A stretch of DNA of 64,000 bases from an uncultured virus (IMG/VR IMGVR_UViG_3300009425_000016) (lineage: Duplodnaviria > Heunggongvirae > Uroviricota > Caudoviricetes): positions 1 to 64,000 of IMG/VR virus record IMGVR_UViG_3300009425_000016, one strand, 5' to 3'. The notes below the pieces were generated by a model. It was not told where the DNA came from, searched no databases, and saw only the letters and a list, made by a program, of their open reading frames with translations. Below are positions 31,310 to 52,493 of this stretch, one piece after another. Position numbers and translations under genes: made by a program. The number at the start of each line of letters is the position of its first letter. The first letter of the stretch is position 1.

Positions 31310-31343
31310 AAATTGTCTCACTAAATATTAATAACTATAATTA

Positions 31344-33512: not shown

Positions 33513-34140
33513 ATACGCAGTCGCATGTATATGTGTTGGTGACAAATACAATGTAAAAGATATAAAACGTCTAGAAAAAATGGTTTTTGAAAATACCACA
33601 TATAATATAAACTTTCGAGTATTTGATGAACCAATTCTTCCCAAATGGTGGACTAAAGTTTTATATCATTCCCCCATGATAGAACAATTCGAAGAAGAAG
33701 TTGTATTAGCATTTGATTTAGATGTTATCATTAAGGGCAATATAGATAAACTATTTGATTGGGTTGAACAACAAAATTATCTATGTGCATGTTGGAGTAG
33801 ATGGAGAGAACATATGGAGAATTTTGAAAAGCGGAGGATACAAAAAGAATGTTGCACTCCTTATAACTCCTCTATATTAGGATGGAAACCAAATAACAGT
33901 TTAAAAGTATGGGAAGAATTTGAATTTGAAGATATTGAAAAATGTGGTGGATTTGATATATATCTTTGGATGAAATATCTTGATCCCATTCGTATACCAG
34001 ACCATTTTTATTATTCTGCTAGTCATTCTAATTATCAAGAATTAGATTATCCAATAGCCCTTTTTAATAAAGGATATTCTGACGGACTAGAAAAGGGGGA
34101 AATATATTCTACTGTTCATTGGACTAAAAAATATATCTAA
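33505..34140 (+). CDS. Glycosyltransferase (GT-A, phage type), paralog of 31362-32114
   Basis: CICVGDKY, PKWWTKV, AFDLDVII (DxD), YNSSILGW. Confidence 0.8.
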   Translation: MFKYAVACICVGDKYNVKDIKRLEKMVFENTTYNINFRVFDEPILPKWWTKVLYHSPMIEQFEEEVVLAFDLDVIIKGNIDKLFDWVEQQNYLCACWSRWREHMENFEKRRIQKECCTPYNSSILGWKPNNSLKVWEEFEFEDIEKCGGFDIYLWMKYLDPIRIPDHFYYSASHSNYQELDYPIALFNKGYSDGLEKGEIYSTVHWTKKYI

Positions 34141-34808
34141 TACCAAACACCATTAGGACTTTCATGTACTAATCCTATATCCTCTTTTAAAACTTCATTA
34201 CAAAATTCCACATCTTCATGAAGATCATTATTCATCATAAATCCAACTGAAAATCTATTACAATTTGTTCCCGCACAATGCCAAGCATATTCTTTATTTT
34301 CTTCAACATGATCTAAATGACTAATAATTTTCAAAGATTTAATATTCCATCCTACAGTATCTTGATATTCTTCAATTTCTTTTGAATCACCATAAATTCT
34401 AGAAATACCTGCACCCGTTTCTGACCAAGAAAATATTATATTTCTGCCTGGGATATTCGCATTATGATGCCATGCAACATATCCATCAGGGGGGTAATGT
34501 TGACATAAAGGACTTCTTCTTGCTCCCACTAAAGAAGCTAATTTATTTGATAATTTTAAAAGTTCTTCATGAGGTTCAGAAGCTTCCAGACCAAAATCAT
34601 TTGATAATATATGTGTAGGCCCGCCAGATCCTGAATCACCTTCCATCATATTAAACAAATATTCATCAGAAATAGCCTCTTCTTTTGAAATTATTTCTCT
34701 TTTATTACTATCTTCAATATTTCCATCACTTTTAATAAAATCGAATATAAAAGGTTCAAATAATTTTAAAATTTTTAAAATATCTTGTGGTATATCTTTT
34801 TCAATCAT
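34137..34808 (-). CDS. Putative 2OG-Fe(II) oxygenase-like (cupin) protein
   Basis: YPPDGYVAWHHNAN, WHCAGTNCNRFSVG. Confidence 0.65.
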   Translation of the reverse strand: MIEKDIPQDILKILKLFEPFIFDFIKSDGNIEDSNKREIISKEEAISDEYLFNMMEGDSGSGGPTHILSNDFGLEASEPHEELLKLSNKLASLVGARRSPLCQHYPPDGYVAWHHNANIPGRNIIFSWSETGAGISRIYGDSKEIEEYQDTVGWNIKSLKIISHLDHVEENKEYAWHCAGTNCNRFSVGFMMNNDLHEDVEFCNEVLKEDIGLVHESPNGVWY

Positions 34809-35532
34809 GCCAACCTGTTCCTTTGGGATAACTTAAAAATACAATATCTGAATAATTAACATTTTCTATTTCACAATCATATCCTGGTGCTGTAAAATTC
34901 CATAAACAATCATCATTTTTTATTGTATTAAAATACCAATTCCATTTTATATCATTTCTGTACCATTCATCTTCTTTATCACATAACATTAAATGTAATG
35001 GAAATTGATCCCACATTTCAACAGGACCTTTCTCATATTTAAAATCCCATCTTGAATGCCAATTATGCTCCATCTTCCATTGCCAATTATTCCACCATTC
35101 CTCCATAAATGTTTTCATTTTTTTATTATTTTTCCAAACAAAAGCACCACCATGAGGTCTTTCTTCTTCATGAATGTTCCACCAACATGCTGATGCACAA
35201 TAAGGTCTAATTTTCGTAAAAACTATATCATTATCACAAAGTGCATCAAATACATTATTTGCATTGTCTGATAAACAAACTACATCAGCATCTAAAAAAC
35301 ATGTAATATCATAGGGGGTTTTTGTTAATGCCCACAATTTAGCCCTGATTGTTTTAGGAGCACCGCCAATAACATTGTCAAATATATGATTTCCTGGATC
35401 TAAGATCCATTCATTGTCAGTAACTAATGTGATTGGATATTGTGTATATTCTTTTATGCTGTCGGCGAGGAGTTGTGCCGCAGTAAGAAATCTTTTATTT
35501 TTGGAAGCGACAACAAGAAATCCATTATTCAT
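34801..35532 (-). CDS. Glycosyltransferase (GT-A / nucleotide-diphospho-sugar transferase)
   Basis: RAKLWALTKTPYDITCFLDAD (DxD), HGGAFVW, WDQF; likely start MNNG at 35532. Confidence 0.8.
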   Translation of the reverse strand: MNNGFLVVASKNKRFLTAAQLLADSIKEYTQYPITLVTDNEWILDPGNHIFDNVIGGAPKTIRAKLWALTKTPYDITCFLDADVVCLSDNANNVFDALCDNDIVFTKIRPYCASACWWNIHEEERPHGGAFVWKNNKKMKTFMEEWWNNWQWKMEHNWHSRWDFKYEKGPVEMWDQFPLHLMLCDKEDEWYRNDIKWNWYFNTIKNDDCLWNFTAPGYDCEIENVNYSDIVFLSYPKGTGWHD

Positions 35533-35992
35533 TTTCTTCAATTGCTGGTTTGAGAACATTTCCCCATTCAGTAAGACCATGAATTGGATCACTGATTGAT
35601 TTTAGTAATAATACAGTAACCCACGCATTTAATTCTACAAGATTTGTTGATTTTCTTATTTTGGAACGAAGAATTTTATCTTTAGACTCTTTCACTTCTG
35701 ATATTTCAAATGCTTTTAATTTTGTATCAAATAATGTTTTTAAATCATCTTGAGCTTTATCTGATTCTTCTTCTTTTTTTTGATTTATTATTTTTCTTTG
35801 AGAATGGGCATGTGAGAAATCATCTATTTCTTTAGGAGTAAATTTTTTGAAAAATTCTTCCCAATGCTCTGTTCCTACAGAGGTTTGTATCGAATATGTA
35901 TCATCATCATTTGTGTTTTTTAATAAAATTGCAATAGAGGTTTTTTCAGAATTAGTCCAAATTCCTTCAACCACTTCATCACTAAATATCAT
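35525..35992 (-). CDS. Hypothetical protein (possible fibre/adhesin chaperone)
   Basis: Directly downstream of 36014-37108; C-terminal LFDTKLKAFEISEVKES...IRKS. Confidence 0.65.
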   Translation of the reverse strand: MIFSDEVVEGIWTNSEKTSIAILLKNTNDDDTYSIQTSVGTEHWEEFFKKFTPKEIDDFSHAHSQRKIINQKKEEESDKAQDDLKTLFDTKLKAFEISEVKESKDKILRSKIRKSTNLVELNAWVTVLLLKSISDPIHGLTEWGNVLKPAIEENE

Positions 35993-36013: not shown

Positions 36014-37108
36014 TTATCCAATTCTCTTATAAAGATTATAAGTGGTTATAATGTTAGAGCTACCATCATTTTGAATTGTAGCTCCTGTCCAATACCCAGT
36101 ATATTGTCCGGTATATTGTCCGCTATATTGTGTAGAATATTGTCCAGTGTAATATGGCCCGTATCGAGCTCCACCAAAGTTTCCATATTGTACTCTATAT
36201 TGTCCTGACCACTGACCAGTATATTGTCCGGTATATTGTCCGCTATATTGTGTAGAATATTGTTGATTTGCTACAGAACACATATAGTCAGTAAATCCAC
36301 CAACTTGTGTCCAAGTTCCAGATCCAGATGCTGATCCCGTTTTTATTTCATAATTTCCCACATTATTTCCACCACTGCCTCCAGTAATACGATTCATCCA
36401 ATGTGCGACTAATGTTTCTATTTCCGCATCTGTCATTTCTTGAACATCTCCACCAGTTCCCTTATATTTTACTGGTTGTTTGCTTCCCACACTACCTGTA
36501 GAAGTTTTTCTCCAAAGATAAATATTTGTGCTGTGTGAATCTTGTGCGGTTGTTTGTGCATAAGCTGCATGTTCTCCACCAGAGGGGGCATTAGTTCCTC
36601 CATGAACATCTATCCACGTTCCTCCTAATGAACCTGAGGGATTGCTTGCTCCCAAATAATATGAACCAACTCCCGTATTGGCTCCCGTTAAAACATATAC
36701 TTCTTGACAACATCTCATAATATCATCTACCAATTTAGCGGTATTCATTTCTTGTAAGACGCCCGATCCTTCCCAAGCTAAAGGCCATACTTCTCCTCCT
36801 GTGGCTTCTGCGGAATTATCATTTGCGCGAAGACCATATGAATTGACTGTAGAAGATCCACTACCAGTAGGATGATACCCCACAGCATCATCTCTTTTAG
36901 TATCAATGAAGTGTCCTAAATTTCCAGTTGTAGTTGTTGATCTTAATTGAATGTTTCCGCGTTGTGCATCAGATTGGTCACTTGCCCATTTTGCTAAAAT
37001 AACAGGAACAATTTTATCCTTTATATTAGCATCTGTCATTTCTCTTAAACTGCTGTTACCTGGGTCTAAATCTGATACCCACAACGGTCTATTATCACCT
37101 GCCGCCAT
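36014..37108 (-). CDS. Putative fibre-tip/adhesin virion protein with a QY/QW tetrapeptide ladder
   Basis: Last gene of the fibre block; G/S/T-rich; three P-L/V...EM(T/N) repeats; C-terminal (Q-Y/W-x-x)n tract. Confidence 0.7.
   Translation of the reverse strand: MAAGDNRPLWVSDLDPGNSSLREMTDANIKDKIVPVILAKWASDQSDAQRGNIQLRSTTTTGNLGHFIDTKRDDAVGYHPTGSGSSTVNSYGLRANDNSAEATGGEVWPLAWEGSGVLQEMNTAKLVDDIMRCCQEVYVLTGANTGVGSYYLGASNPSGSLGGTWIDVHGGTNAPSGGEHAAYAQTTAQDSHSTNIYLWRKTSTGSVGSKQPVKYKGTGGDVQEMTDAEIETLVAHWMNRITGGSGGNNVGNYEIKTGSASGSGTWTQVGGFTDYMCSVANQQYSTQYSGQYTGQYTGQWSGQYRVQYGNFGGARYGPYYTGQYSTQYSGQYTGQYTGYWTGATIQNDGSSNIITTYNLYKRIG
36096..36263. repeat. Exact 48-bp direct repeat, 120-bp spacing, within a 12-bp-period coding array
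   Basis: ccagtatattgtccggtatattgtccgctatattgtgtagaatattgt at 36096-36143 and 36216-36263. Confidence 0.95.
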
Positions 37109-37121: not shown

Positions 37122-38132
37122 TTATGGTCCTAATCTTGTTCCTGAGGTATTGAATACACCAAAAGTAACCCATTGTGCTAATCCATTTCCGTCAGAATCT
37201 TGTAACAATTTATATTGTGCGGGAGATCCGCCTGAAATTGTGACAGTATTAGATAAAGTTACAGTATTTCCATGTCCCATTGTTATAGCTACATCTCTAC
37301 CCAATCCACCAAGAAGACCACTATCAATAATGACTTCTTGTGCTGCATTCATTGTAATAGTATCTTCTGCTTCAGAATTTTGAATAATATTTCCGGATAA
37401 TTTAAGCTTATCAGCAGTTACTTGTACGGTTCCGTTTACAGCATTATCAATGGTTTCCCCGTTGCCAAATGTAATAGTATTCCCACCAAATGATACATTA
37501 TCACTAATTTCCCATTTGGTTCCTGTATCATTCCACAATATACTATGATCAGTCGCTCCATCATTTACTTGAATACCGGCACCAGTAGCAGTTGCTGTAG
37601 TTTTTGTCTCAGCATTTGATAATTCAATAGTTTTGTCTGTAACAACAACTGTCGTCGATTCTACTACAGTTTGTGTACCTTGAATAGTTAAATTTCCTGT
37701 AATAACTGTATGAGCCGCCGCCAATTGTAAATGAGAAGCACTTAGTCCAATTTTAGCTGAAGTTTCGGCTATGATTTGAGATGTATTAACTAATATTTTC
37801 TCATTCCCTGCACTAGCATTTCCTGCATAAATTTTTATTTCATCTTCATCATTACCCCATCCTTCATGGACTGTAATTTTTGTATCTTTATCTTTATCTG
37901 TTAAATCACCAAATGATACCCACTCCGCATCATGATATCCTTCATATTTTCCTAAAGTTGAATTATATCTAACTTGACCAGTATTCGGACCATACACTCC
38001 CGCGGGTCTTTGAGCAGTGGTTCCAACAGGAACGGTCATATAACCAGTAGTGTTGAAAATCGTGTTTCCTGTGATTACCTGATCACCATCGATATCAACT
38101 GTTTGTGATAATTCATAAGCTCGTGATGTCAT
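37122..38132 (-). CDS. Tail fibre-like virion structural protein
   Basis: VPVGTTAQRP...GQVRYNSTLGKYEGY..W, DKDKDTKITV, GNLTIQGT..VESTTVVVTDKTIEL fibre motifs. Confidence 0.75.
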   Translation of the reverse strand: MTSRAYELSQTVDIDGDQVITGNTIFNTTGYMTVPVGTTAQRPAGVYGPNTGQVRYNSTLGKYEGYHDAEWVSFGDLTDKDKDTKITVHEGWGNDEDEIKIYAGNASAGNEKILVNTSQIIAETSAKIGLSASHLQLAAAHTVITGNLTIQGTQTVVESTTVVVTDKTIELSNAETKTTATATGAGIQVNDGATDHSILWNDTGTKWEISDNVSFGGNTITFGNGETIDNAVNGTVQVTADKLKLSGNIIQNSEAEDTITMNAAQEVIIDSGLLGGLGRDVAITMGHGNTVTLSNTVTISGGSPAQYKLLQDSDGNGLAQWVTFGVFNTSGTRLGP

Positions 38133-38137
38133 TTTTA

Positions 38138-38656
38138 TTATTCCTTCGTTTTATTTTTAGTAATCCAATTGTCGATGGATGTCCAATCGACCCAATCTTC
38201 TAATTGATTTAATGCTTTAAAGGTCATATTTTGTAATCCTCCAAAATTAGGAGAAAATAGATCATTGTCTATCATATCACCCGCATCCATTTTTGTAATA
38301 TCTAATTCTATAATACTATCATTTAATATATTTATGTCATTTAATGATTCTTCGTGCTTACTCTGATCAACTGCCCAAGTATTTGTAGCTGGGTCATGTG
38401 TTCCATATTTACTTAATATTTCTGCTCTATTATTTAAATAAATTTGATGATGTTGTTTAATTGCTCTTGCGCATATAAACAATTTCCAAAAAATTGCAGT
38501 TTTTTCTACATCTCGTTGTAAATATGCACTTGTGTGAAAATCTTTTGTCCATAATTCATTTATAAAAATGACATATTCTTCATCAGTAAAATATGCATAT
38601 CTAATTTTCACATTTTTATCATTATTTACAACTTCTTCTTTTTTTTTATTACTCAA
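38138..38656 (-). CDS. Hypothetical protein (possible fibre assembly chaperone)
   Basis: Lies between two fibre-like genes; globular composition. Confidence 0.6.
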   Translation of the reverse strand: MSNKKKEEVVNNDKNVKIRYAYFTDEEYVIFINELWTKDFHTSAYLQRDVEKTAIFWKLFICARAIKQHHQIYLNNRAEILSKYGTHDPATNTWAVDQSKHEESLNDINILNDSIIELDITKMDAGDMIDNDLFSPNFGGLQNMTFKALNQLEDWVDWTSIDNWITKNKTKE

Positions 38657-41084
38657 TTTCTTCCATTAATATTTTATATTTTTTACCTGTCAAATTATTT
38701 GTTAATGACAAGTAATCGCTTTCCTCGACGACTTTCCAATCGCCACGTTCATTTTTCAAATTTAAGTCAGAAGTATATATGTTAGCCCATCTTAAAGCAG
38801 CACTTCCCATATCTCTCGTTCCATTAGCATCAGGTAAAACATCTGAAGCGAAATAACCTCCAGACATATCAATATTCGAGTTAAATGTCGCTAATCCTGT
38901 AAAAGAAGATGTAGTTCCCACCAAAAGATTATCTTCAATTTCTATTGCTCCACAATGGAAATTTTCATAATCCGCTATTGTTACATTTCCTGCTGCTGAT
39001 CCATCATCTCCTACACGACATGTTGAAAATTCATCTAAACTTTCATCCCAAATAAATGCCGTATTTCCAAGATCATTAGTTCCTCTAATGAATACAAATC
39101 CGGTATCATAAGCATTATTTGTTGGTACTGTTGAAAAATTATTAAGAACTATAAACGGATCTGTTATAGTCATAGTATCAGATTTAACTTCAGTAGTTGT
39201 TCCTGTAATATGTAAATTACCAATAAGAGTTGTGTCTTGACCTGACGGAGTTATTGTTAATTTTCCATCCGCAGCAACATCAAAAGTAGTATTTGCTGCA
39301 AAACTATGTTCTAATTTTAATTGAGTCGTCTCAAGTCCTCTAACGTGAAGTGTAGATTCAGGAACTTTAACACCAACGCCAATTCTATCATTATACGTAT
39401 CAACAGCAAATGTCGCGTTAGCATGTGATGAGACATCAACACCAATATAAGTATTAGCATAAACAGAAGACCATCCAGCTGTATTTGCCCATCTACTTTT
39501 AGTGTAAACATCAGTATTTTCAAAAGATGTCCACGCCAAAGATTCAACTATATTACCCACTGATTGTGCTGGAATAGTAACAGTAGTTCCGTTGGTCGAT
39601 GTCACCAAACTTTGATCAATTTTTACTCCCTCACTAAACATCTCTATTAATTGAGGGGTATAACCGCCGTTAATTGTAAAAACTGTCTGACTAGCGGTTG
39701 CTACAAATCTCTCTCTTGTCATTGCCGCTTTATGTAGATCTGATGCAGCCATTGACATAACATCTATTATATCGTCTACTCCAACGGTAAAGTTAAGAAA
39801 AGTTATAGCACTTCCTAATGTATCAGTACTATAATCAGCAGTATCTAATTTAATACCGTTCACGAATACTTGTACATAAGACGGATTATATAGTGCACTA
39901 ACTGAAGTAGTTGAGTCTGCGGGATTTGCAATTCTTGTATTATATACTGCTGTAGAGGGGGCGAGAGTATACCACGCTGCAGCGGTATTTGAATAATATT
40001 CCATCTGCCCCTTTGCACCATCCATCTCTTTATTAAATCTAAGCATGCCATCTTCAAGATCAGTTGACGGTCTCTGTGCTGTAGATCCTGATGGAACAGT
40101 AATAGAAGTCTCACCATCTCTTCCTAAAATATTATGACAAAATACGTTGTTAGCCCATACTGATTGTACTCTCTGGTCTGTTTTTCCTATATGAAGTTCA
40201 TTTCCGCTACCGGACCAACTACTTGGTAAAAAATATCCATCATCAGCATCAGCTCCAATATACCATCTCTCTGTTCCTTCAGTATAAAATTTAATTTGAT
40301 CTTCATCACCGCCATGAGTAGTTTCGACGGTTATTTTTGTGTCTTGGTCTGAATCAATAGTTCCACCCAATGACATAAAAGTATTAGAAACATGATCATA
40401 ACCCTCATATCTGTCTAATGTTGTATTATATCTAATTACTCCGCGTAAAGAATGATCTGCATTTGTGGTACTAGATAGATCTGTAATTTCTGGTCTATCT
40501 GAAGTTTCACCAGAAGGTATTTTTAAATGTGAAGTTGTGTTTGCTCCAACCGTGTCCCATACATAAAGGTTTTTCCATCTTTCTGAATTATTACCTAAAC
40601 TAATTGCAGTATTTGTTAAACCAACTTGAGGTAATGGTGTAAGATCTGCAGCAATGTCTGCTAGTATTGTTACAGTATCTACGTCTGGATCATCACCTAA
40701 TTGAATATTTCCTTCTGCTTTAACTACTCCTGCTACGTAAACTGATCCACCGACATTTAAACTTTTTTGAACTGAAACACCACCTTTAAATATAGCAGAG
40801 CCTGTGGACATACTTGCTGTAAAATCATCACTTGTGCCGTCTGTCACATCTCGTAAACTATTGGAGGTTATTCCACCTTCTCCTGTTGTATTAAATTCTA
40901 TTGATCCATTTGCTATTAAATCACCAATTCTTATTCCACCATTTCCATCATCATCTCTTCTTACTACTGTATTTGCGATACCTGCGTCTGTTCCAGCATT
41001 AACGTCGGCAATGACCAAGTTGGTCTGATTACGCCACGTTTCAAAGGTATCAGTTAAAGCTACGTTTGCGAATGAAGTTGCCAT
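38649..41084 (-). CDS. Tail fibre protein
   Basis: N-terminal TDTFETWR..TN; two PSG...RP...G..R(Y/F)N repeats; VFVNGIKL modules; C-terminal WANIYTSDL.L.NE.G.W...E....N..TGKKYK seen in marine T4-like fibres. Confidence 0.8.
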   Translation of the reverse strand: MATSFANVALTDTFETWRNQTNLVIADVNAGTDAGIANTVVRRDDDGNGGIRIGDLIANGSIEFNTTGEGGITSNSLRDVTDGTSDDFTASMSTGSAIFKGGVSVQKSLNVGGSVYVAGVVKAEGNIQLGDDPDVDTVTILADIAADLTPLPQVGLTNTAISLGNNSERWKNLYVWDTVGANTTSHLKIPSGETSDRPEITDLSSTTNADHSLRGVIRYNTTLDRYEGYDHVSNTFMSLGGTIDSDQDTKITVETTHGGDEDQIKFYTEGTERWYIGADADDGYFLPSSWSGSGNELHIGKTDQRVQSVWANNVFCHNILGRDGETSITVPSGSTAQRPSTDLEDGMLRFNKEMDGAKGQMEYYSNTAAAWYTLAPSTAVYNTRIANPADSTTSVSALYNPSYVQVFVNGIKLDTADYSTDTLGSAITFLNFTVGVDDIIDVMSMAASDLHKAAMTRERFVATASQTVFTINGGYTPQLIEMFSEGVKIDQSLVTSTNGTTVTIPAQSVGNIVESLAWTSFENTDVYTKSRWANTAGWSSVYANTYIGVDVSSHANATFAVDTYNDRIGVGVKVPESTLHVRGLETTQLKLEHSFAANTTFDVAADGKLTITPSGQDTTLIGNLHITGTTTEVKSDTMTITDPFIVLNNFSTVPTNNAYDTGFVFIRGTNDLGNTAFIWDESLDEFSTCRVGDDGSAAGNVTIADYENFHCGAIEIEDNLLVGTTSSFTGLATFNSNIDMSGGYFASDVLPDANGTRDMGSAALRWANIYTSDLNLKNERGDWKVVEESDYLSLTNNLTGKKYKILMEEIE

Positions 41085-41094
41085 GTGTTAATCC

Positions 41095-41298
41095 CTAATA
41101 GTTAATAAATTTTTTAATTTCTAATATTTCCGCTTTTATTTCAGAAATTTCCGTCTTTAGTGTATTTATCTCCGCTTGTCTACTGTCAGCTTGCCTTTTT
41201 ACTAATCTATGGGCAGTTAATGCATCTATATCATTTCTTAATATTGCATTGCTTTCAGTATCTTTCAGAAATCCTGGAGCGTCTGTTAAAATTTTCAT
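41095..41298 (-). CDS. Small coiled-coil hypothetical protein
   Basis: KDTESNAIL...EINTLKTEISEIK; ATGA-coupled to the 2003-aa gene. Confidence 0.7.
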   Translation of the reverse strand: MKILTDAPGFLKDTESNAILRNDIDALTAHRLVKRQADSRQAEINTLKTEISEIKAEILEIKKFINY

Positions 41299-44200
41299 GA
41301 ATCTAATGCTACAGCTCTTAAATCCTTAATTTTTGGTGGATCTATATTACTTGAAGATGTTAAAACAACTTTTATTGCAAAATATTTAAAATCTTTAAAA
41401 GTTGTAGATCCAACAGTATATGCAGCAGAATCATCTGCTGTTTTATAATTATATGTTAAGAAATCTGACTCATTTGCAGAATATACACTTGAATCGGTTT
41501 CTTGTGTCATTTTATTCCAATACTTATCATCAAATGATTCAGAATCAGTTGAACTAAGTGCTTTATAATAAATATTAATATTTGAGGTACTAGGTTTATA
41601 TGCTCTTATATATACTCTAACATCTTCAGCATCAAACCCGTCTTGTAATGTTACTCTTCTTGTTATATACCTCGCTATTCCATTTCCACCTTCTCTGTCC
41701 GTTTCTGCTGAAATTGTTACAGATCCAGTTGTACCACCAGACAAAGTAGCGGTAATATTATCAAAATATCCACTTCCCTCCGCTGAAGCATATGCATCTG
41801 TAATTATTCCTGTACCATCTGTGACTAATGTAACTCCCGCTCCCGTTCCTGTTGTTCCAGAAAGTGTGATATTACTAGTACCGTTTGCATATCCTGTTCC
41901 TCCCGCAACTACAGCCACATTATTATTACTAATTCCACCATTGTTAATATTATTTTCAACAGTTATTAAATTTAATCTGGATATATCTATAACTGGTGAA
42001 ACATCTGAATTTGTTGTGGACATTTTCACTTGTATTTTCATATCTGGATCAGTACCACCATCATATTTACCTGTTCTAATAGTTTTTCTACTATCATGCT
42101 TAATATTTTTATTTGATGTAAATTTAGTAAAAGAATTATCTCTAACAGCAATATGAGGATATGCTGCATTTTCAGTAGTTGTTTGATAAAAATAATCTAT
42201 TACTGAATCTGAAAATTTTAATTCTGATGTACTTAATTTCATCAAATCATATGCCGTATTAGCTGTTCCATTTGAAAGAGGATGTGGAATTACATCAAAT
42301 TGACACAAATTAGAATTAAAAGATGTTAATTGAAAAGAACATTTTTGTGTTTTAAACATCAAGCTTCTATTAGTAACCGGAGTCCATTTACTAGAATTAT
42401 TTGTAACAAAAAAGTCTCCAACTTCAGGGCCTTTTCCTGCTTTTGTATTTGTAGTATCACTGTTAGTTACTATATTTCCTTCAACAGAACTATAAACTTT
42501 ATATTTTGGACTATTTGTCATTAAAACAATAGCGAATTCGCCAGGTGGTAAATATACTGGTGATGGAAATTTAAATGTCGTTCCACTTGATGATTTTGTT
42601 GTATCAGGAGAAGAAGAATCAACAGTTATTTCATCAGGAACAAGAACTTTTTCACCAAATGGTAGGACTTGAGCAACGCTTGGTGTCCCATCTGTCATTG
42701 GTCTTACTTGTACTGTTACAGGCAAATAAGTATCCTTTTGTGAAAAATAGAATGTAACAGTTCTTAAAAACACTCCATTTGGATATCTAGACTCATCTAT
42801 CACTATAGACTGTGCCATCGGATTCACAAAATTCGAAGAAGAACTTTTATCAGAAACAGCTGATTTTGTCACAACAGCGGATCTAATATCTTGTCTTCTC
42901 ACTAAAGAAGATCTTGTTGAAATTATACTTCCATCTGATACAGATTCCATACCTTTTATATGAAATGTTTTTTCAGCTACAGAATTAGTTTTAGATAATG
43001 TATTGTCAGCTTGATCAGTAAGTCTTACTAATCTTTCTCCCATTCTAAATTGTCCAGCTGTAAATTCAAAATTTCCAACTACAGTACCATTTATATCAGA
43101 TTTAAGATTATTAACATATGCTGTTGGTACGGCTGATAAAGTCGCATTTGCTGTTACTGTTCCACTCGCAGAAACATAATCTGCTTCTACAATTGTTGAT
43201 GTACCTGTCGTAGTCCAATCACCAATTGTATTCGCAAGCATTAATGTAGTATTTCCCGTATAATCTGTATGAACCAATGTTCCAGAAATTGAACTATTCG
43301 CACTTACTGTTACATATTCTCCCTCATTCGCTATAAATTCTGAGTTTCCTCCGTCAGTAATGGATAATGTCACTCCAGTATTAGCCTGCCCTGTTAAATT
43401 TACACCATCTACATATAAGTAATGATCAGTACTTGGTTTTAATCCTTGTGCTTTAAATATAACAGTTTGTTTTCTATTCCATGAAACAATAGTATCATTA
43501 ACTTGTTTATTGTTTACTGTTTTCTTAACTGATTCTGGTTGATCTTTTGATAAAATCCCATCTCTTGTATTTTGTTGATCTATAGTCTTGGCTGATCTAT
43601 CTACTTTAGTAGAAGATGTTGATTTTTTATTCGCTTTTGAAACATCATCATTATTAATCTCTACACCACTCCAATTTTTTGACCAATTGTCCCATTGTGT
43701 ACCAAATCCATAATTATATTTACCAGATTCCCAATTATCACTACCTCCAGTTAAATTTATTAATACCTCTGGGCGCCTTCCATCATAAAACCATGTATCA
43801 CTAGGATTTGACATAGTTAAAATTCCATTAAACATACCAGAACCAAATGGATTTACTTCTTCAGTCGTTGTTGTAGCGGGTTGATCAACGAATCCCGTGT
43901 CTGTATAAGCAACAGAAACCAAATCTCCTGTTTTCATTATATTCGCACTATTAACATCAAGTTTAAATTTAAAATTATCAGATTCAAATGTCGGTCTTAA
44001 AAGTGTTTGATCAAAATCTATCGCTATTCTATAATCATCATCTAAAACATCACCAATTGCATGTCCCGCAAATTGGTCTACAAGTATACCATTCTTAAAT
44101 CTCTCCACTCCACCATCTGTAAATATCGCTTGTTCCTTTGCATCTTTTTCCAAAAATGAGAGAGATGTAAAATATTCAAGTTGTTCAACTCTTTTTTCTA

Positions 44201-47200
44201 TTTTACCAATATCCCTCATAGTAAATCTTTTATTTTCAATATATTGTAAATTTACATCAGTAACCTCAAATGTATATTCAGGAATATCTGCGATATAAAT
44301 TGTCATAGAATCTTCATCATCTGCCGGAACAATAGGATCAACTGAAGGATTTCCTTCAATTACACCAAATTCCCTATCTTTTGTTACAACAATTTTATCT
44401 TTTCTTGGTAAATAAAATTGTACATCTGTCGTTAAAACAACATCTGAATCTGGTAATCTTGGTAGAACTACAGATTGATTAATTGTCGCAGAATCTAAAG
44501 CAAATGACGCAGATTCATCACCATTTGTTCTCTTTGGTCTAAAATCTAAACAATCTCTTAAACTTACTGTTTTTCCAGTTATAGGACTTGTGTATGATGG
44601 GATATCAGAAAATTCTATGCCCGCAGTTGCTCCAAGATAAGTATCTACAGTAAATGGGCCGTCTGCAGCCTGATGTACAAAATAATCAAATACCGCCACT
44701 ATTGGAACTGCTGGGGCGGATTGACCTGGTTTCAATTTAACAAATCCAAAATCATATAAATTATCTCTCTGACCAGTTTCAAAATTATATTTGTCTGTTA
44801 TATTATTAGTATCACCAGCACTTGCACATGCTGTTGTAAACAATTCAGTAGTAAGGCTTGCAATATCAGTGTCTGGAGATTTAACAATTGCTTTCAAAGA
44901 TTTTACATCTGATGTTCTTAAACTAATCGTCGTATTAGCATAATCCGCGGCAGTAGTTGCTTTATATTGTCCTAATCCTCTTAAAGTTGTATTAGTATCA
45001 CCACTAGTAAAGGATGTTGTATTTGAATTAACAATAGTTTTAGTTCTAAAGGTAGAAGCGAGAGGGGATAATGAAATAGCCGCAGTTATTGTGGCAGTGA
45101 AATTATCATTATTTCCCACACCTGTATCTAAAGCCATTGAAGTACCAGCTGCGTCAACTGAAGAGGTGGCACCAGCACCAAAATTAATAATGTCTCCAAT
45201 GTTACGCGGACACAATGCACCAATACTCCCTGTAATAGTACACACAACATGATTAAGTAAATCTGCAGATCCTAAAGAAGCACCCTTACCCGGCAAAAAC
45301 ACTCCGCCAGTTTGAGTAATAGATGCAAGACCATTATTAAAAGTTACACTAAAAAATTGCTGTTTTACTGTGTAATCAAATTTAGAAGAGACAAGAGGAT
45401 TTAGGGTTTTTACTACTGCTTGTGGTAATTCATATATTAAAGAACTTCTATCAGTATCAAATATTTTAGTAAGACTATTTGGATCTAATTGATCAACTTT
45501 ACCAAATTGTGAAATGTCTGCATACTTTTCAATATTTCCAGAACCATCTGATTCTATAACACTTTCTAAATATTTTGCGGTAAAATCAATTTCACACGTA
45601 TCACTAACTCCAATATCTGCTAAAAATGCATTTGCTAAAGTAATAGTATTTCCTTGATGATCTGTGATGAGTCTTGATACTCCATCATTATAACCACTTG
45701 TCATTTTAATTGAAGCACCAGCATATGCTAAAGAAACATTAGTAGATTTTGTAGAATTTAAAACAAGTGTTGTTCCTCCTGCAGCAATACCCGTATGAAC
45801 ATTAGATGTTATACTTGACATTTTGGTATCATACAAATATAAATCATAAGTACCATTTGTTGCCCCAGGAGTACCAGAAAAATAATCTAATTGTCTAGGT
45901 CTAGCAGTTCCTATCTTTGATGTATTATATGTTGCTGCGGAAGTAGTATTGATATTTACTGTTCTTACACAATGTAAATCTATTGGTGCTTGTGTAGCGA
46001 CATTAAATGAACCATTCGCACTATCAATTCTTAAATTGTTTCCAAAATTTGTATTCATAACAAATTCTATCGCATTGTTAGTGTCTCTACCCTTTCTTAT
46101 ATCAGCATATTCTACGGCAACACTTTCATAATCATATCCTCTTACATAAGCTTTACCTGGTTCTAGTCCAACAGACAATTTATCTAAATTATGAATATAT
46201 TGTGTTTGTCCTGATCCAATAGCAGAAGCAACAGTCATATTCTCATCATCTGCGATTGCCGTAACTGTAGTTGTAGCAGAATTAAAAGATCCATTTGTTA
46301 AATAAACAGAATCACCAATTCTAAAATCTTTTAAAAATTTAGATTCAAGTCCAACTATTGATGCTGTTGTACTAGCTAATGTCCATCCACTCGCATTTTT
46401 ATGAGTATTTAAATTAGCCAAAAATGGTTTAACAGTATAGTTTCCTGATTCATCATAAGTTCTTCTTGCTAAAGTATCATCTAATGCAGAATATACTGGA
46501 TATTTTACAATTTTTGTTGGAAGGCCGCTAACAACTCTTAATAATTCTATAAAATTTTGTTCTGAAATAGTAGTGAGTGACTTTTTACCCAATATTAAAG
46601 CTATTTTATATCTATCTGCTCCAGGTGCATTAACGTTAAAAGATCCTGAAGCATTATCCAATAATGAAGAATCTGCGACATTATTTGTAATACTTTCTGT
46701 TATCGTTAATCCAACTTTATATGATGGTGTCGTTGCAAATTTTTCTAGAACAATGGTTTGAGCATCAACTGTAACAAAAAATCCGTTTATATAATAAATT
46801 CCAGCAGAAATACTTGCAATAGAACCATCTCCTGTAATGGTTCCGGCATCTGCGGTTTGTGCACTTATACCAGTACTGCCTGCAACATGTATCGTTGCTG
46901 ATGTTGTAGTAATCGTATCAGAACCAGAATATACTCCTATTAAAACGGGAGCATCGCTACCTTCAGCCTCTACAGTAGTAATTACATCAAAGGTAATTGT
47001 GTCCGCACCACTAAGTTGAATTTTTTGATTTGCGAAAGTTGATGCAGTTTCAGTTGATGCTAATCTAATATAACTAACGTTAGTATTTAAATTAATCTGT
47101 CCACCTGTAACAATACTACCATCCTTATAAAAGGAATCGCCCAATCTAGATATTTGATTTTGTAAAATTGTCTGAAGTTGTGTTAACTCTCTAACCTGAA

Positions 47201-47306
47201 GAGAAACTCCAGGTTGAAATAACATTCTAAGAAATTTCTTAGTTTCATCATAATCATCAAAATAAGGACTTTGCTGTAAAGATGAAAGTAAACTTAATGT
47301 AGCCAT
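41295..47306 (-). CDS. Large virion structural protein (DUF4815/VrlC-like)
   Basis: SPYFDDYD..K.F.R.LF.PG..LQ.RELTQLQTILQNQ, NAPGADRYKI, LARRTYDESGNY, RFKNGILVD.F, C-terminal FAIKVVL...PKIKDLRAVAL. Confidence 0.85.
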   Translation of the reverse strand: MATLSLLSSLQQSPYFDDYDETKKFLRMLFQPGVSLQVRELTQLQTILQNQISRLGDSFYKDGSIVTGGQINLNTNVSYIRLASTETASTFANQKIQLSGADTITFDVITTVEAEGSDAPVLIGVYSGSDTITTTSATIHVAGSTGISAQTADAGTITGDGSIASISAGIYYINGFFVTVDAQTIVLEKFATTPSYKVGLTITESITNNVADSSLLDNASGSFNVNAPGADRYKIALILGKKSLTTISEQNFIELLRVVSGLPTKIVKYPVYSALDDTLARRTYDESGNYTVKPFLANLNTHKNASGWTLASTTASIVGLESKFLKDFRIGDSVYLTNGSFNSATTTVTAIADDENMTVASAIGSGQTQYIHNLDKLSVGLEPGKAYVRGYDYESVAVEYADIRKGRDTNNAIEFVMNTNFGNNLRIDSANGSFNVATQAPIDLHCVRTVNINTTSAATYNTSKIGTARPRQLDYFSGTPGATNGTYDLYLYDTKMSSITSNVHTGIAAGGTTLVLNSTKSTNVSLAYAGASIKMTSGYNDGVSRLITDHQGNTITLANAFLADIGVSDTCEIDFTAKYLESVIESDGSGNIEKYADISQFGKVDQLDPNSLTKIFDTDRSSLIYELPQAVVKTLNPLVSSKFDYTVKQQFFSVTFNNGLASITQTGGVFLPGKGASLGSADLLNHVVCTITGSIGALCPRNIGDIINFGAGATSSVDAAGTSMALDTGVGNNDNFTATITAAISLSPLASTFRTKTIVNSNTTSFTSGDTNTTLRGLGQYKATTAADYANTTISLRTSDVKSLKAIVKSPDTDIASLTTELFTTACASAGDTNNITDKYNFETGQRDNLYDFGFVKLKPGQSAPAVPIVAVFDYFVHQAADGPFTVDTYLGATAGIEFSDIPSYTSPITGKTVSLRDCLDFRPKRTNGDESASFALDSATINQSVVLPRLPDSDVVLTTDVQFYLPRKDKIVVTKDREFGVIEGNPSVDPIVPADDEDSMTIYIADIPEYTFEVTDVNLQYIENKRFTMRDIGKIEKRVEQLEYFTSLSFLEKDAKEQAIFTDGGVERFKNGILVDQFAGHAIGDVLDDDYRIAIDFDQTLLRPTFESDNFKFKLDVNSANIMKTGDLVSVAYTDTGFVDQPATTTTEEVNPFGSGMFNGILTMSNPSDTWFYDGRRPEVLINLTGGSDNWESGKYNYGFGTQWDNWSKNWSGVEINNDDVSKANKKSTSSTKVDRSAKTIDQQNTRDGILSKDQPESVKKTVNNKQVNDTIVSWNRKQTVIFKAQGLKPSTDHYLYVDGVNLTGQANTGVTLSITDGGNSEFIANEGEYVTVSANSSISGTLVHTDYTGNTTLMLANTIGDWTTTGTSTIVEADYVSASGTVTANATLSAVPTAYVNNLKSDINGTVVGNFEFTAGQFRMGERLVRLTDQADNTLSKTNSVAEKTFHIKGMESVSDGSIISTRSSLVRRQDIRSAVVTKSAVSDKSSSSNFVNPMAQSIVIDESRYPNGVFLRTVTFYFSQKDTYLPVTVQVRPMTDGTPSVAQVLPFGEKVLVPDEITVDSSSPDTTKSSSGTTFKFPSPVYLPPGEFAIVLMTNSPKYKVYSSVEGNIVTNSDTTNTKAGKGPEVGDFFVTNNSSKWTPVTNRSLMFKTQKCSFQLTSFNSNLCQFDVIPHPLSNGTANTAYDLMKLSTSELKFSDSVIDYFYQTTTENAAYPHIAVRDNSFTKFTSNKNIKHDSRKTIRTGKYDGGTDPDMKIQVKMSTTNSDVSPVIDISRLNLITVENNINNGGISNNNVAVVAGGTGYANGTSNITLSGTTGTGAGVTLVTDGTGIITDAYASAEGSGYFDNITATLSGGTTGSVTISAETDREGGNGIARYITRRVTLQDGFDAEDVRVYIRAYKPSTSNINIYYKALSSTDSESFDDKYWNKMTQETDSSVYSANESDFLTYNYKTADDSAAYTVGSTTFKDFKYFAIKVVLTSSSNIDPPKIKDLRAVALDS

Positions 47307-49058: not shown

Positions 49059-49089
49059 TTTTAATTCCTTTATTATAGTCTATGTTTAT

Positions 49090-52482: not shown

Positions 52483-52493
52483 TAAAAATTACC

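What the first reader, a model, noticed from the sequence alone, without database searches (positions are those of the whole stretch)
36084..36266. Strictly 4-periodic aromatic ladder: 7 Tyr/Trp, a turn, then 7 Tyr/Trp
Seen: QYSTQYSGQYTGQYTGQWSGQYRVQYGNFGGARYGPYYTGQYSTQYSGQYTGQYTGYWTG. Counting the first Y as 1, aromatics occupy positions 1,5,9,13,17,21,25 and 33,37,41,45,49,53,57, i.e. 14 of 15 register positions. The only break falls in the Gly-rich GNFGGAR centre. Inference: this is a long beta-hairpin needle whose two arms pair aromatic with aromatic, or an array of repeated Q-Y-x-x cores for radical SAM crosslinking. The loop tip could be the receptor-contacting element.
Basis: partly seen in the sequence, partly recalled or inferred. 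Interest (0 to 1): 0.9.

Follow-up and report, generated by a model that had tools for sequence, protein, structure and literature searches.

The report
Aromatic-ladder hairpin stalk of phage protein
A marine T4-like phage protein ends in a two-armed ribbon with a tyrosine at every fourth residue; it belongs to a large undescribed family whose two arms lengthen and shorten together, and it is most likely a length-adjustable host-contact stalk.

Summary
On the minus strand, ORF 36014-37108 (364 aa) carries at residues 283-342 the quoted 60-mer. Aromatics fill 14 of 15 period-4 positions, and 0 of 100,000 shuffles reach this.

It is one member of a large unnamed viral family: 743 representative clusters and 58 IMG/VR loci, with no Pfam, PHROG, NCBIfam or PDB sequence match. 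All members share:
- a roughly 280-aa base made of three internal repeats, whose fold weakly resembles MABP/MACPF beta-prisms;
- a [Y/F]-[T/S/A]-G-x ladder of 15 to over 1,200 residues;
- a conserved C-terminal strand that AlphaFold2 returns into the base.

The two arms stay matched. In 23 proteins with a single register break, the arms differ by at most one unit in 19. In 34 nearest-neighbour pairs without a central gap, 31 have gaps in both arms and 24 have equal gaps. AlphaFold2 draws one long hairpin in a relative, at low confidence.

The hairpin reading is supported. The radical-SAM reading is not: the window's rSAM cluster is shared by only 4 of 58 loci, and 35 of 50 related records hold no rSAM.

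The gene lies in the host-recognition cluster and is followed in 37 of 39 loci by the same three genes, one of them glycosyltransferase-like.

This scan found the same family before on other genomes.

The parts
36014..37108 (-). Gene of the ladder protein (364 aa, P0001), stop codon included
   Evidence: ORF list and translation. 40 homologs, 58 IMG/VR loci, 743 representative clusters at E<=1e-3.
36263..37108 (-). Base domain, residues 1-282. It holds three internal repeats (about 17-108, 112-214 and 215-283). Each has an 'EMTDAEI'-type helix followed by G-x-G-x-Y...P..GTW strands.
   Evidence: Profile-profile self-alignment: R1-R2 97.2%, R1-R3 97.1%, R2-R3 98.6%. AF2 pLDDT is mostly 70-94. 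VIA-align gives Z 7.3/7.2/6.1 to MACPF C-terminal and MABP beta-prisms for the P0013 model, and Z 5.5/5.0/4.7 for the P0001 model.
36185..36259 (-). Arm 1 of the ladder, residues 284-308: seven aromatics at spacing 4 (six Y, one W)
   Evidence: AF2 strand 279-292.
36164..36184 (-). Turn, residues 309-315 (GNFGGAR), the only register break
   Evidence: Step string 444444-8-444444. The homologous turn YGN[FY]GGARYGP[YW]Y is kept in P0002 and P0003, and a closely related form in P0004.
36083..36163 (-). Arm 2 of the ladder, residues 316-342: seven aromatics at spacing 4
   Evidence: AF2 strand 332-345.
36017..36082 (-). Conserved C-terminal tail, residues 343-364 (ATIQ...YNLYKRIG). It is the return strand that closes the third repeat of the base.
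   Evidence: T344 and R362 are invariant in alignment A1. AF2 strand 352-362 has pLDDT 83-91. It corresponds to 'IYLWRKT' of repeat 2.
36083..36143 (.). DNA direct repeat, copy A (encodes arm 2)
   Evidence: the repeat finder family D1, reference copy.
36203..36263 (.). DNA direct repeat, copy B (encodes arm 1), 93% identical to copy A
   Evidence: In run X2 a 48-nt contig at 36216-36263 has about twice the depth of its neighbours.
35525..35992 (-). Conserved downstream gene 1 (155 aa). It has a charged, probably helical C-terminal half. Function unknown; a chaperone role is only a guess.
   Evidence: Homolog in 48 of 58 loci. First of the ordered trio in 37 of 39 loci with room. Alignment A4. 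No Pfam, PHROG or NCBIfam match that reaches a family's cut-off.
34801..35592 (-). Conserved downstream gene 2 (263 aa), GT-A-like glycosyltransferase candidate with an invariant D101-x-D103
   Evidence: Homolog in 48 of 58 loci. 12 of 21 members weakly match Glycos_transf_2 (best E 0.0021) and one matches GT8 (5e-4), all below the cut-offs. Invariant columns.
34137..34808 (-). Conserved downstream gene 3 (223 aa), unknown. Invariant W113, H114, N116, D150, H177 and R185.
   Evidence: Homolog in 47 of 58 loci. Alignment A3. Only faint leads to 2OG oxygenases: 1 of 21 members at E 0.037, and Atlas scores of 0.87-0.88, below the level that counts.
41295..47306 (-). Giant DUF4815 protein (2,003 aa). 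By its position I take it to be the VrlC-type baseplate protein that opens the host-recognition cluster.
   Evidence: Pfam DUF4815 at 1e-48. Homolog in 48 of 58 loci. In 21 of the loci listed the ladder gene starts 735-790 nt after it. The equation with VrlC is inferred from passages of PMC7029224.

Best explanation
Residues 283-342 are the shaft of a long beta-hairpin that grows out of the third repeat of a three-repeat, beta-prism-like base domain. Arm 1 runs out, a tight Gly-rich turn (GNFGGAR) reverses the chain, and arm 2 runs back. The conserved last 20 residues then re-enter the base as its closing strand.

The unit [Y/F]-[T/S/A]-G-x puts aromatic and Gly residues alternately on one face of each strand, and small or polar residues on the other face. 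The aromatic/Gly face is therefore the one that holds the ribbon together. It could do so within one chain or between copies; that is not resolved.

Each arm has about 28 residues, so the stalk would be roughly 9-10 nm long. This figure is inferred from the standard rise of about 3.3 A per residue in a beta strand.

Across the family the stalk is length-adjustable. Units are gained or lost in both arms together, or the distal part is lost whole. Larger members carry extra, mostly unrecognised segments near the midpoint, and one of these is a lectin-type domain.

The gene lies in the host-recognition cluster of T4-like marine myoviruses, usually directly after the VrlC-type baseplate gene. Its most likely role is therefore a baseplate-attached contact or reach element for the host surface.

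Shown here: the periodicity, the family, the three-repeat base, the matched arms and the synteny.
Inferred: cis pairing of the arms, attachment to the virion, and the role in host contact.
For: PERIODICITY
- 14 of 15 register positions are aromatic, and 0 of 100,000 shuffles reach this.
- Over 3,500 four-residue units in 133 family proteins: position 0 is Y 73%, F 25%, W 2%; position 1 is T 40%, S 23%, A 14%; position 2 is G 67%; position 3 is variable.

TOPOLOGY
- The three base repeats align to each other at 97-98.6% probability.
- The ladder sits where repeats 1 and 2 have an ordinary loop, between the 'GTW..G.F.D' strand and the 'LW.R' strand.
- AF2 places the C-terminal strand 352-362 in the base at pLDDT 83-91, and makes strands of 279-292 and 332-345.
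- For relative P0013, AF2 gives strands 239-272 and 279-323 around a 6-residue turn. Mean pLDDT is 83.9, and 50-61 in the ladder.

ARM SYMMETRY
- Of 23 proteins with one irregular step, the arms differ by at most 1 unit in 19 (r=0.96, range 1 to 33 units).
- Among 183 close pairs with different ladder lengths, differences of 8 aa (36 pairs) and 16 aa (21) far outnumber 4 aa (6) and 12 aa (2).
- Of 45 nearest-neighbour pairs, 11 have a gap across the midpoint. Of the other 34, 31 have gaps in both halves, 24 have exactly equal gaps, and 3 have gaps in one half only.
- The window protein and its 64%-identical relative differ by one unit in each arm.

MIRRORED PLACEMENT
- L020 and L024 each lose the unit next to the turn on both sides.
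- Irregular elements sit mirror-wise in P0012/18/20/54, P0029, P0030, P0046 and P0089.

TIP
- Laminin_G_3 (E 1e-9, 39.2 bits, cut-off 27.6) lies in the insert of P0087 centred at 0.55 of its ladder.

CONTEXT
- The cassette is kept in 47-51 of 58 loci, and the trio is in order in 37 of 39 loci with room.
- Passages of PMC7029224 describe a host-recognition cluster between VrlC and gp14.
- Passages of PMC4621102 state that VrlC is a baseplate protein, and that in Listeria phage A511 the receptor-binding protein is encoded beside it and appears bound to it.
Against: - AF2 confidence in the ladder is low. It is about 35 for residues 293-331 of the window protein, drawn as coil, and 50-61 in P0013. 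No coordinates are given, so arm-to-arm pairing is read from DSSP strands only.
- The two arms are direct DNA repeats, 93% identical over 61 nt. Gene conversion could therefore equalise them without any pairing.
- P0004 places its odd element directly, not mirror-wise.
- In the step-string test on 50 proteins, the mirror fit beat the direct fit in 20, tied in 21 and lost in 9. Only 10 of 50 beat the within-arm shuffles at 0.05 or below.
- In 30 long members (170 aa or more) the lengths of the clean periodic flanks do not correlate (r=0.05), although the irregular residues are concentrated centrally (mean interquartile range 0.26).
- The pairs are not independent: several share one partner.
- Metagenome assemblies can collapse repeats, so some length variants may be artefacts. 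An example is P0017 against P0029, whose bases are 100% identical. Public contigs do break at the window's repeats.
- Only 1 of 6 tested mid-ladder inserts has a recognisable domain. The full-length scan of P0087 did not report it.
- No evidence places the protein in a virion.
Confidence: 0.62

Rival explanations
1. The ladder is a low-complexity, largely disordered Tyr/Gly/Ser/Gln linker, similar in composition to FUS-type [G/S]Y[G/S]Q domains (a resemblance I recall, not one I tested). Its two halves are equal only because they are direct DNA repeats kept alike by gene conversion and slippage. There is no defined hairpin.
For: - The arms are 93% identical over 61 nt as direct repeats.
- P0003 also has near-identical arms.
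- P0004's arms are direct copies, including their odd element.
- AF2 pLDDT is about 35 and drawn as coil for residues 293-331.
- The direct fit equals or beats the mirror fit in 30 of 50 proteins.
Against: - Strict period 4 is kept over 3,500 units while position 3 varies freely. This points to a structural constraint, not a compositional one.
- Both ends of the ladder are anchored in one domain.
- Mirror-wise changes, such as loss of the turn-proximal unit on both sides in L020/L024, cannot come from copying one direct repeat onto the other.
- Arms that have diverged in sequence still match in length, for example P0011.
- AF2 assigns continuous strands in P0013.
Confidence: 0.14
2. The Q-Y-x-x units are cores for crosslinking by the radical SAM/SPASM enzymes encoded 4.7 kb downstream (14424-31321).
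For: - A cluster of at least 9 ORFs with Radical_SAM and/or SPASM matches lies nearby. Five reach the cut-off of NF033640.
- The cluster travels with the ladder gene in the closest relatives L001 and L003-L005.
- From memory, not from any call: rSAM/SPASM enzymes are known to act on repeated short aromatic motifs.
Against: - The window's rSAM ORFs have homologs in only 4 of 58 loci, and two of them in up to 7.
- PF04055 is absent from 35 of 50 related records. Where several copies occur (G010, G014) they lie more than 10 kb from the ladder gene.
- The complete genome of phage C48C1 has one rSAM, 42 kb from its 3,347-aa ladder gene.
- The ladder is part of a 364-aa folded protein, not a leader-plus-core peptide.
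- No rSAM here reaches the cut-off of any named peptide-maturase family.
- PMC7029224 describes rSAM cassettes as add-ons that differ between near-identical host-recognition clusters (passages).
Confidence: 0.04
3. The ladder is a shaft that exists only as an oligomer. Arms of two, three or more chains would interleave, for example as a six-stranded tube like the T4 gp37 needle (recalled), so cis pairing is not the native state.
For: - One face of every strand is aromatic/Gly, and such a face would prefer burial.
- Phage fibres are usually trimers (established knowledge).
- AF2 monomer confidence in the ladder is low.
- Matched arms fit this reading as well as they fit cis pairing.
Against: - The base is itself a single-chain pseudo-threefold unit. 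That is the usual mark of a monomer standing in for a trimer.
- The ladder contains no HxH or other inter-chain motif (sequence).
- Nothing tested here shows self-association.
Confidence: 0.15

Closest known systems
Needle (tip) domain of the T4 long tail fibre protein gp37 (recalled from the literature; not retrieved here)
   Same: In both, the chain runs out to a tip and returns, so N- and C-terminal flanks sit together and the tip is the distal, host-facing point. Both are elongated beta structures in a host-recognition gene of a T4-type phage.
   Different: - There is no sequence relation: no Pfam gp37 families match, and the Atlas names gp37 families only at the chance level of 0.80.
- The ladder has no His-x-His metal sites.
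- gp37 is an intertwined trimer, whereas here the base is a single-chain three-repeat unit.
- The period-4 aromatic/Gly unit and the coupled unit-wise length changes have no counterpart in gp37.
MABP-type beta-prism domains: the C-terminal domains of Plu-MACPF (2qp2) and Mp2Ba1 (8b6v), the MVB12B MABP domain (3tow), and the perforin-2 P2 domain (6sb1)
   Same: These are the best structural matches of the base. For the P0013 model: Z 7.3 (rmsd 3.5, 119 aligned), Z 7.2 (116 aligned), Z 6.1 (109 of 152) and Z 5.4. The same four entries lead for the P0001 model at Z 5.5-3.9. Both folds are pseudo-threefold. The perforin-2 P2 domain is said to carry a protruding membrane-contacting hairpin; I recall this and did not check it.
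   Different: - Z is below 8, which the tool itself says may reflect only a common arrangement.
- Sequence identity is 5-12%.
- The repeats here each include a helix.
- There is no MACPF pore-forming domain.
- The hairpin here is a repeat ladder of variable length.
T4 baseplate proteins gp10/gp11 (1el6, 2fkk) and a baseplate-cup protein of Klebsiella phage KP1 (9f4b_FD)
   Same: One repeat of the base (model residues 130-175) aligns with gp11 at Z 5.4 (45 residues, 20% identity) and with the KP1 protein at Z 4.7. Both contexts are baseplate.
   Different: The match is short and covers one repeat only. Those proteins build the unit from three chains, whereas here there are three repeats in one chain. 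There is no sequence-family match.
Radical SAM/SPASM-modified repeat peptides (RiPP precursors)
   Same: Both have short aromatic-containing units repeated many times, and in this window rSAM genes lie nearby.
   Different: Linkage to rSAM genes is not conserved. The ladder is a large folded protein without a leader. See the membership test.

Membership tests
T4 gp37-type needle / tail-fibre tip families (Pfam gp37_C, gp37_trimer) | Sequence match to the family models | tested here: not met
   0 Pfam families at E<=0.01 for P0001. 0 PHROGs. The profile of A1 against PDB sequences gives only two chance-level rows (E 0.21 and 0.88).
T4 gp37-type needle / tail-fibre tip families (Pfam gp37_C, gp37_trimer) | His-x-His metal-binding repeats along the needle (feature recalled) | tested here: not met
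   There is no His in residues 283-342 (sequence).
T4 gp37-type needle / tail-fibre tip families (Pfam gp37_C, gp37_trimer) | The chain reverses at a distal tip so that both flanks meet | tested here: met
   AF2 returns the C-terminal strand to the base at pLDDT 83-91 and draws a hairpin in P0013. Repeat homology places both flanks in one repeat. This is a prediction, not a solved structure.
T4 gp37-type needle / tail-fibre tip families (Pfam gp37_C, gp37_trimer) | Homotrimer | tested here: inconclusive
   Nothing tested here bears on the oligomeric state.
Radical SAM/SPASM RiPP precursor | Conserved genomic linkage of precursor and maturase across relatives | tested here: not met
   The window's rSAM ORFs are found in 4 of 58 loci, and two of them in up to 7. 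PF04055 is in 15 of 50 records and absent from 35. In C48C1 the only rSAM is 42 kb away.
Radical SAM/SPASM RiPP precursor | Short precursor made of a leader (recognition) part and a core | tested here: not met
   It is a 364-aa protein with a confidently folded 280-aa base and a conserved C-terminal strand.
Radical SAM/SPASM RiPP precursor | Neighbouring rSAM belongs to a characterised peptide-maturase family | tested here: not met
   The only family reached above its cut-off is NF033640, 'twitch domain-containing radical SAM protein'. All named maturase models score far below their cut-offs.
Radical SAM/SPASM RiPP precursor | Crosslinks actually present on the protein | not testable with these tools
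   This needs mass spectrometry.
MABP / MACPF-associated beta-prism fold | Three-fold internal pseudo-symmetry | tested here: met
   hhalign of the three segments gives 97.2%, 97.1% and 98.6% probability.
MABP / MACPF-associated beta-prism fold | Structural superposition well above background | tested here: inconclusive
   Z 7.3, 7.2, 6.1 and 5.4 for four entries of this fold class. The next full-length row is at Z 2.7. However, Z is below 8, and Foldseek finds nothing at E<=0.001.
MABP / MACPF-associated beta-prism fold | Sequence match to a family model | tested here: not met
   No Pfam or NCBIfam match.
Disordered FUS-like Tyr/Gly/Ser/Gln low-complexity domain | Composition rich in Y, G, S/T and Q | tested here: met
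   The 60-mer consists almost entirely of Q, Y, S, T and G.
Disordered FUS-like Tyr/Gly/Ser/Gln low-complexity domain | No fixed register and no predicted secondary structure | tested here: inconclusive
   A strict period of 4 holds in 133 proteins, and P0013 shows continuous strands. Both argue against disorder. pLDDT of about 35 with coil in the distal part of the window protein argues for it.

The most novel reading that the evidence does not exclude
The ladder is a new kind of fibre shaft: a single-chain, two-stranded 'tyrosine zipper' ribbon whose length is set digitally, in units of four residues per arm. The direct DNA repeats of the two arms let recombination add, remove or truncate units so that both arms change in step.

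The ladder would also be the substrate of the three genes that always follow it. These are a glycosyltransferase-like enzyme, an H-x-N...H...R protein and a small charged protein. On this reading they glycosylate the exposed Thr/Ser face, or otherwise cure the aromatic face, so that the thin ribbon becomes rigid.

The phage would then tune the reach of a baseplate-mounted sensor by repeat arithmetic.
Probability: 0.2. Interest if true: 0.85.

Novelty: new variant of a known kind. Interest (0 to 1): 0.7.

Why it matters
The family is abundant in marine and freshwater T4-like phages: 743 representative clusters, and IMG/VR loci from many samples. It sits in the genome region that decides host range. 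Yet it has no name, no model in Pfam, PHROGs or NCBIfam, and no solved relative.

If the hairpin reading holds, three things follow.
- It adds a simple and unusually legible design to the catalogue of phage fibres: a period-4 aromatic/Gly ribbon on a single-chain pseudo-trimeric base.
- Its length can be read directly from the sequence, and it evolves by coupled unit changes. That makes it a natural system for studying how two-stranded beta ribbons are stabilised.
- It gives metagenome annotators a marker for a host-contact gene in the host-recognition cluster.

The constant trio of neighbours, one of them glycosyltransferase-like, raises a testable possibility of virion protein modification in marine myoviruses.

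Tried and rejected
- **Trimer prediction.** Three copies of relative P0013 with alignment A5 scored 0.01-0.02 against a mark of 0.42. The tool's verdict is 'no answer', so this counts neither for nor against self-association.
- **Foldseek.** Searches against PDB and BFVD with the P0001 model, and against PDB with the P0013 model, gave nothing at E<=0.001.
- **tblastn against 50,697 phage records.** P0001 found nothing. P0013 and the 263-aa neighbour each found only phage C48C1.
- **Pfam on 51 long homologs at E<=0.001.** The only result was a sub-threshold Gly-zipper in one protein.
- **Pfam on five mid-ladder inserts scanned alone.** The only result was a sub-threshold DUF4214.
- **Profiles of the 263-aa and 223-aa neighbours against PDB sequences.** Nothing meaningful came back.
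- **ESM Atlas.** For P0001 only unnamed viral clusters scored well, and tail-fibre families scored 0.80, the chance level. For the 223-aa protein, 2OG-oxygenase-type clusters scored 0.87-0.88, below the level that counts.
- **Median position of irregular residues as a test of a central tip.** I dropped this test because a uniform scatter would also give 0.5.
- **First regex-based delimitation of the ladder.** It mis-anchored, and I replaced it with HMM anchors.
- **Literature.** No paper describing this family turned up in six searches:
  - 'C48C1'
  - 'DUF4815' + 'phage'
  - 'pelagimyophage'
  - 'tail fiber' / 'tyrosine-rich' / 'repeat' / 'beta-hairpin'
  - 'VrlC' / 'cyanophage' / 'tail fiber' / 'structural protein'
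  - 'tyrosine ladder' / 'beta-hairpin' / 'glycine' / 'phage'
- **'Tentaclins' paper (PMC10743442, passages).** It concerns C-type-lectin/Ig proteins and is unrelated.
- **RNA-library contigs.** They cover parts of the gene (X15 at 100% identity; X16 a 90-99% relative). Such libraries can hold DNA, so transcription is not shown.
- **Stretches of the window without contig cover in runs X2, X15 and X16.** These say nothing.
Full report
**1. Observation**

The finding's coordinates translate to stops on the plus strand. On the minus strand they fall in ORF 36014..37108, 364 aa, P0001.

The quoted 60-mer is residues 283-342 (nt 36083-36262). With the first Tyr counted as 1, aromatics occupy 14 of 15 positions of one period-4 register, and the miss is Gly29 in GNFGGAR. 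Three more aromatics lie out of register. None of 100,000 shuffles of the 60-mer puts 14 aromatics in one register, and spectral power peaks at period 4.

At DNA level the arms are direct repeats: 61 nt at 36083-36143 and 36203-36263, 93% identical. TRF also reports period 12.

Contigs of two other DNA runs (X2, X3) and one RNA-library run (X15) reproduce the stretch between the arms without a mismatch. They break at the repeats, and one 48-nt repeat contig has about double depth.

**2. What the window is**

The window is part of a 75-kb viral record, estimated 30% complete. It carries T4-type genes:
- neck and sheath-stabiliser genes, at 1000-2750;
- baseplate genes: gp5 OB domain, gp25-like (below the Pfam cut-off), gp6 and gp8, at 47310-63457.

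Between them lie, on the minus strand:
- a 2,003-aa DUF4815 protein (41295-47306);
- fibre-like genes (37122-41084);
- the ladder gene;
- further downstream, a block of radical SAM genes (14424-31321).

Passages of PMC7029224 describe exactly such a 'host recognition cluster' between VrlC and neck gene gp14 in pelagimyophages and cyanomyophages. According to those passages it holds tail fibres, glycosyltransferases and, in some genomes, radical SAM cassettes that differ between near-identical phages. That the DUF4815 protein is the VrlC of that paper is my inference from its position.

**3. The family**

P0001 has no Pfam, PHROG or NCBIfam match and no relative among PDB sequences. It does have many unnamed relatives:
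- 40 relatives in the word-indexed search;
- 58 IMG/VR loci;
- 743 representative clusters at E<=1e-3, of which 378 are at 1e-30 or better; the listed lengths run from 226 to 1,490 aa.

The only cultured-type record found is phage C48C1 (Kyanoviridae, 156 kb). Its homolog is 3,347 aa long.

All members read share three parts:
- a base of about 280 aa;
- a ladder of [Y/F/W]-[T/S/A]-G-x units;
- a conserved end, 'G[AD]T[IV]Q...LW.R..'.

I delimited the ladder with HMM anchors in 106 of 185 stored proteins; the other 79 lacked one anchor or were fragments. I then added 27 ORFs from the loci. In the 106 delimited proteins the ladder is 15 to 712 aa long, with a median of 103. By eye it is over 1,000 aa in P0087 and P0117.

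Over 3,500 regular units in 133 proteins:
- position 0 is Y 73%, F 25%, W 2%;
- position 1 is T 40%, S 23%, A 14%;
- position 2 is G 67%;
- position 3 is free.

**4. The base and the topology**

The base consists of three homologous segments (residues 17-108, 112-214, 215-283). Profile-profile probabilities are 97.2%, 97.1% and 98.6%.

In repeats 1 and 2 the strand 'GTW..' is followed by an ordinary loop and then a strand such as 'IYLWRKT'. In repeat 3 the ladder takes the place of that loop, and the protein's last residues ('YNLYKRIG') take the place of the closing strand. Both ends of the ladder are therefore held in one small domain.

AlphaFold2 results:

| Model | Mean pLDDT | Ladder |
|---|---|---|
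| P0001 with alignment A1 | 73.8 | Strands at 279-292 and 332-345; C-terminal strand 352-362 in the base at pLDDT 83-91; residues 293-331 left as coil at about 35 |
| P0013 (relative, 55-aa ladder) with alignment A5 | 83.9 | Strands 239-272 and 279-323 around a six-residue turn; no segment of 3 or more residues below 50; ladder blocks at 50-61 |

Fold searches:
- Foldseek finds no relative.
- VIA-align on the P0013 model puts four beta-prism entries on top: Mp2Ba1 C-terminal domain (Z 7.3), Plu-MACPF C-terminal domain (Z 7.2), MVB12B MABP domain (Z 6.1) and perforin-2 P2 domain (Z 5.4). Short matches of one repeat to T4 gp11 (Z 5.4) and a KP1 baseplate protein (Z 4.7) follow.
- The same entries lead for the P0001 model at lower Z.
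- These Z values are below the level the tool calls safe. I take the fold resemblance as a lead that agrees with the three-fold repeat, not as membership.

**5. Do the arms pair?**

The test comes out in favour of symmetry.

(a) One register break. Of 23 proteins whose ladder has exactly one irregular step, that step splits the units evenly, within one unit, in 19. The correlation is r=0.96 over 1 to 33 units. The exceptions are P0049 (6|8), P0048 (9|6), P0026 (8|15) and P0042 (27|33).

(b) Length differences between close relatives. Among 248 pairs at least 60% identical in the base, 183 differ in ladder length. Differences of 8 aa (36 pairs) and 16 aa (21) dominate over 4 aa (6) and 12 aa (2).

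(c) Where the gaps fall. I took the 45 nearest-neighbour pairs with ladders of 330 aa or less.
- 11 have one gap across the midpoint, meaning loss of the distal part.
- Of the other 34, 31 have gaps in both halves, 24 have exactly equal gaps, and 3 have gaps in one half only.
- The window protein and its 64%-identical relative differ by one unit in each arm.

(d) Mirror placement. This cannot come from copying one direct repeat onto the other.
- L020 and L024 (84% identical bases) differ by the unit next to the turn on each side.
- The two-residue inserts 'AK' and 'TS', and the 17-residue odd element of P0012/18/20/54, sit at equal distances from the outer ends.

Against this:
- P0004 places its odd element directly.
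- A cruder step-string test gave mirror better in 20, a tie in 21 and direct better in 9 of 50 proteins. Only 10 of 50 beat within-arm shuffles.
- In 30 long members the clean flanks do not correlate (r=0.05).
- The pairs are not independent.
- Some length variants may be assembly collapses, for example P0017 against P0029 with 100% identical bases.
- The arms' DNA identity means gene conversion contributes to their likeness.

On balance, anchored ends plus coupled and partly mirror-wise changes make antiparallel pairing of the arms the best reading. Whether the pairing is within one chain or between chains is open.

**6. Tip and function**

Of 55 stored proteins of 500 aa or more, 26 have at least one non-periodic segment of 70 aa or more inside the ladder. 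These segments are often, but not always, near the middle.

The segment of P0087, scanned alone, is a Laminin_G_3 (concanavalin-like) domain: E 1e-9, 39.2 bits against a cut-off of 27.6. The full-length scan had missed it. Five other segments gave nothing. The C48C1 protein has several globular inserts, each flanked by ladder runs.

Three lines of context point to a baseplate-mounted host-contact element whose reach is set by ladder length:
- the gene's place in the host-recognition cluster;
- in many loci, its position 735-790 nt after the VrlC-type gene;
- the statement in PMC4621102 (passages) that VrlC is a baseplate protein, and that in Listeria phage A511 the receptor-binding protein is encoded beside VrlC and appears bound to it.

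For the window protein the stalk would be about 9-10 nm long, inferred from about 28 residues per arm. None of this function is shown.

**7. Neighbours**

Three genes follow the ladder gene in the same order and on the same strand in 37 of 39 loci that have at least 2.6 kb of room. They also follow it in C48C1.
- The 263-aa protein has an invariant D-x-D. It weakly matches glycosyltransferase families in 12 of 21 members, with a best E of 0.0021, below the cut-off.
- The 223-aa protein keeps W113, H114, N116, D150, H177 and R185. It has only faint leads to 2OG oxygenases. The likeness of the H-x-N...H...R pattern to the oxygenase motif rests on my recall.
- The 155-aa protein has a charged C-terminal half.

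Such tight linkage suggests that these proteins assemble or modify the ladder protein. That is the basis of my 'novel case'. It is untested.

**8. Radical SAM reading**

The window holds at least 9 ORFs with Radical_SAM or SPASM matches. Five reach the cut-off of NF033640, 'twitch domain-containing radical SAM protein', and none reaches the cut-off of a named peptide maturase.

- These ORFs recur only in L001 and L003-L005, and two of them in up to 7 of 58 loci.
- Of the 50 related records searched (50 of my 60 loci), 35 have no PF04055 match. Most of the others have a single rSAM of about 330 aa far from the ladder gene.
- C48C1's only rSAM lies 42 kb away.

These records are fragments, so absence is not proof for each one. 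The pattern still shows that the ladder does not depend on rSAM genes. A lineage-specific modification cannot be excluded without mass spectrometry.

**9. Comparison, novelty, verdict**

In working principle the nearest thing I know is the out-and-back needle of T4 gp37 (recalled). In fold, the nearest is a beta-prism carrying a long hairpin. Membership in either family fails on sequence, and for gp37 also on the metal motif.

Six literature searches found no description of this family.

Earlier notes of this scan describe the same family on four other genomes and reach the same reading. They are AI notes and not independent support. I saw them after my own tests, which reproduce their main claims.

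I rate the feature as real, non-random and undescribed. It is a new variant of a known kind: a phage host-contact appendage with an unusually legible, length-adjustable design.

Noticed in passing
window 14424-31321 (minus strand): A block of at least 9 ORFs with Radical_SAM and/or SPASM matches. Five reach the cut-off of NCBIfam NF033640 (twitch-domain rSAM): 29930-31321, 21754-25992 (1,412 aa, two rSAM stretches), 19305-21767, 17932-19308 and 15452-16756. An Asp/Arg beta-hydroxylase-like ORF lies among them (25979-26632). The block is shared only with the closest relatives L001 and L003-L005. Neither substrate nor product is known.
   Followed up: partly
window 3558-13805: Unusual cargo for a phage: a full-length TctA tricarboxylate-transporter subunit (5830-7275, Pfam E 4.7e-79), an NAD-dependent epimerase (3558-4229), two ORFs with partial AMP-binding matches (9500-10924 and 11997-12677), a PP-loop/QueC/TilS-like ORF (13161-13805) and a methyltransferase-like ORF (8789-9370).
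   Followed up: no
L060 21012-31055 (GenBank OQ984149.1, phage C48C1, CDS0201): The family's homolog here is 3,347 aa long. It has runs of a 12-residue variant of the unit (for example Y-x-R-x-R-x-S-x-Y-x-G-x), several globular inserts each flanked by ladder runs, and an apparent exact tandem duplication of about 75 residues near residue 2,000.
   Followed up: partly
window 36419-36440 and 37022-37043: The 'EMTDAxI' helix starts of base repeats 3 and 1 are still 86% identical at DNA level over 22 nt. This hints at recent exchange between the internal repeats.
   Followed up: no
window 37122-38132 and 38649-41084 (minus strand): Two fibre-like proteins (336 and 811 aa) lie between the VrlC-type gene and the ladder gene. 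They share a short N-terminal motif with cyanophage P-HM1 gp7 and with phrog_6005. They occur in only 7 and 17 of 58 loci, so they are an insertion specific to this lineage.
   Followed up: no
window 31362-34140 (plus strand): Four plus-strand ORFs lie between the conserved trio and the rSAM block. Those at 31362-32114, 32619-33512 and 33505-34140 recur in 22, 17 and 10 of 58 loci. The last has a D-x-D-like 'DLD' stretch. None has a family match.
   Followed up: no
window 36083-36263, runs X2, X3, X15: Public short-read contigs break exactly at the two 61-nt arm repeats, and one repeat contig has about double depth. Ladder genes of this family are therefore prone to fragmentation or collapse in short-read assemblies.
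   Followed up: partly
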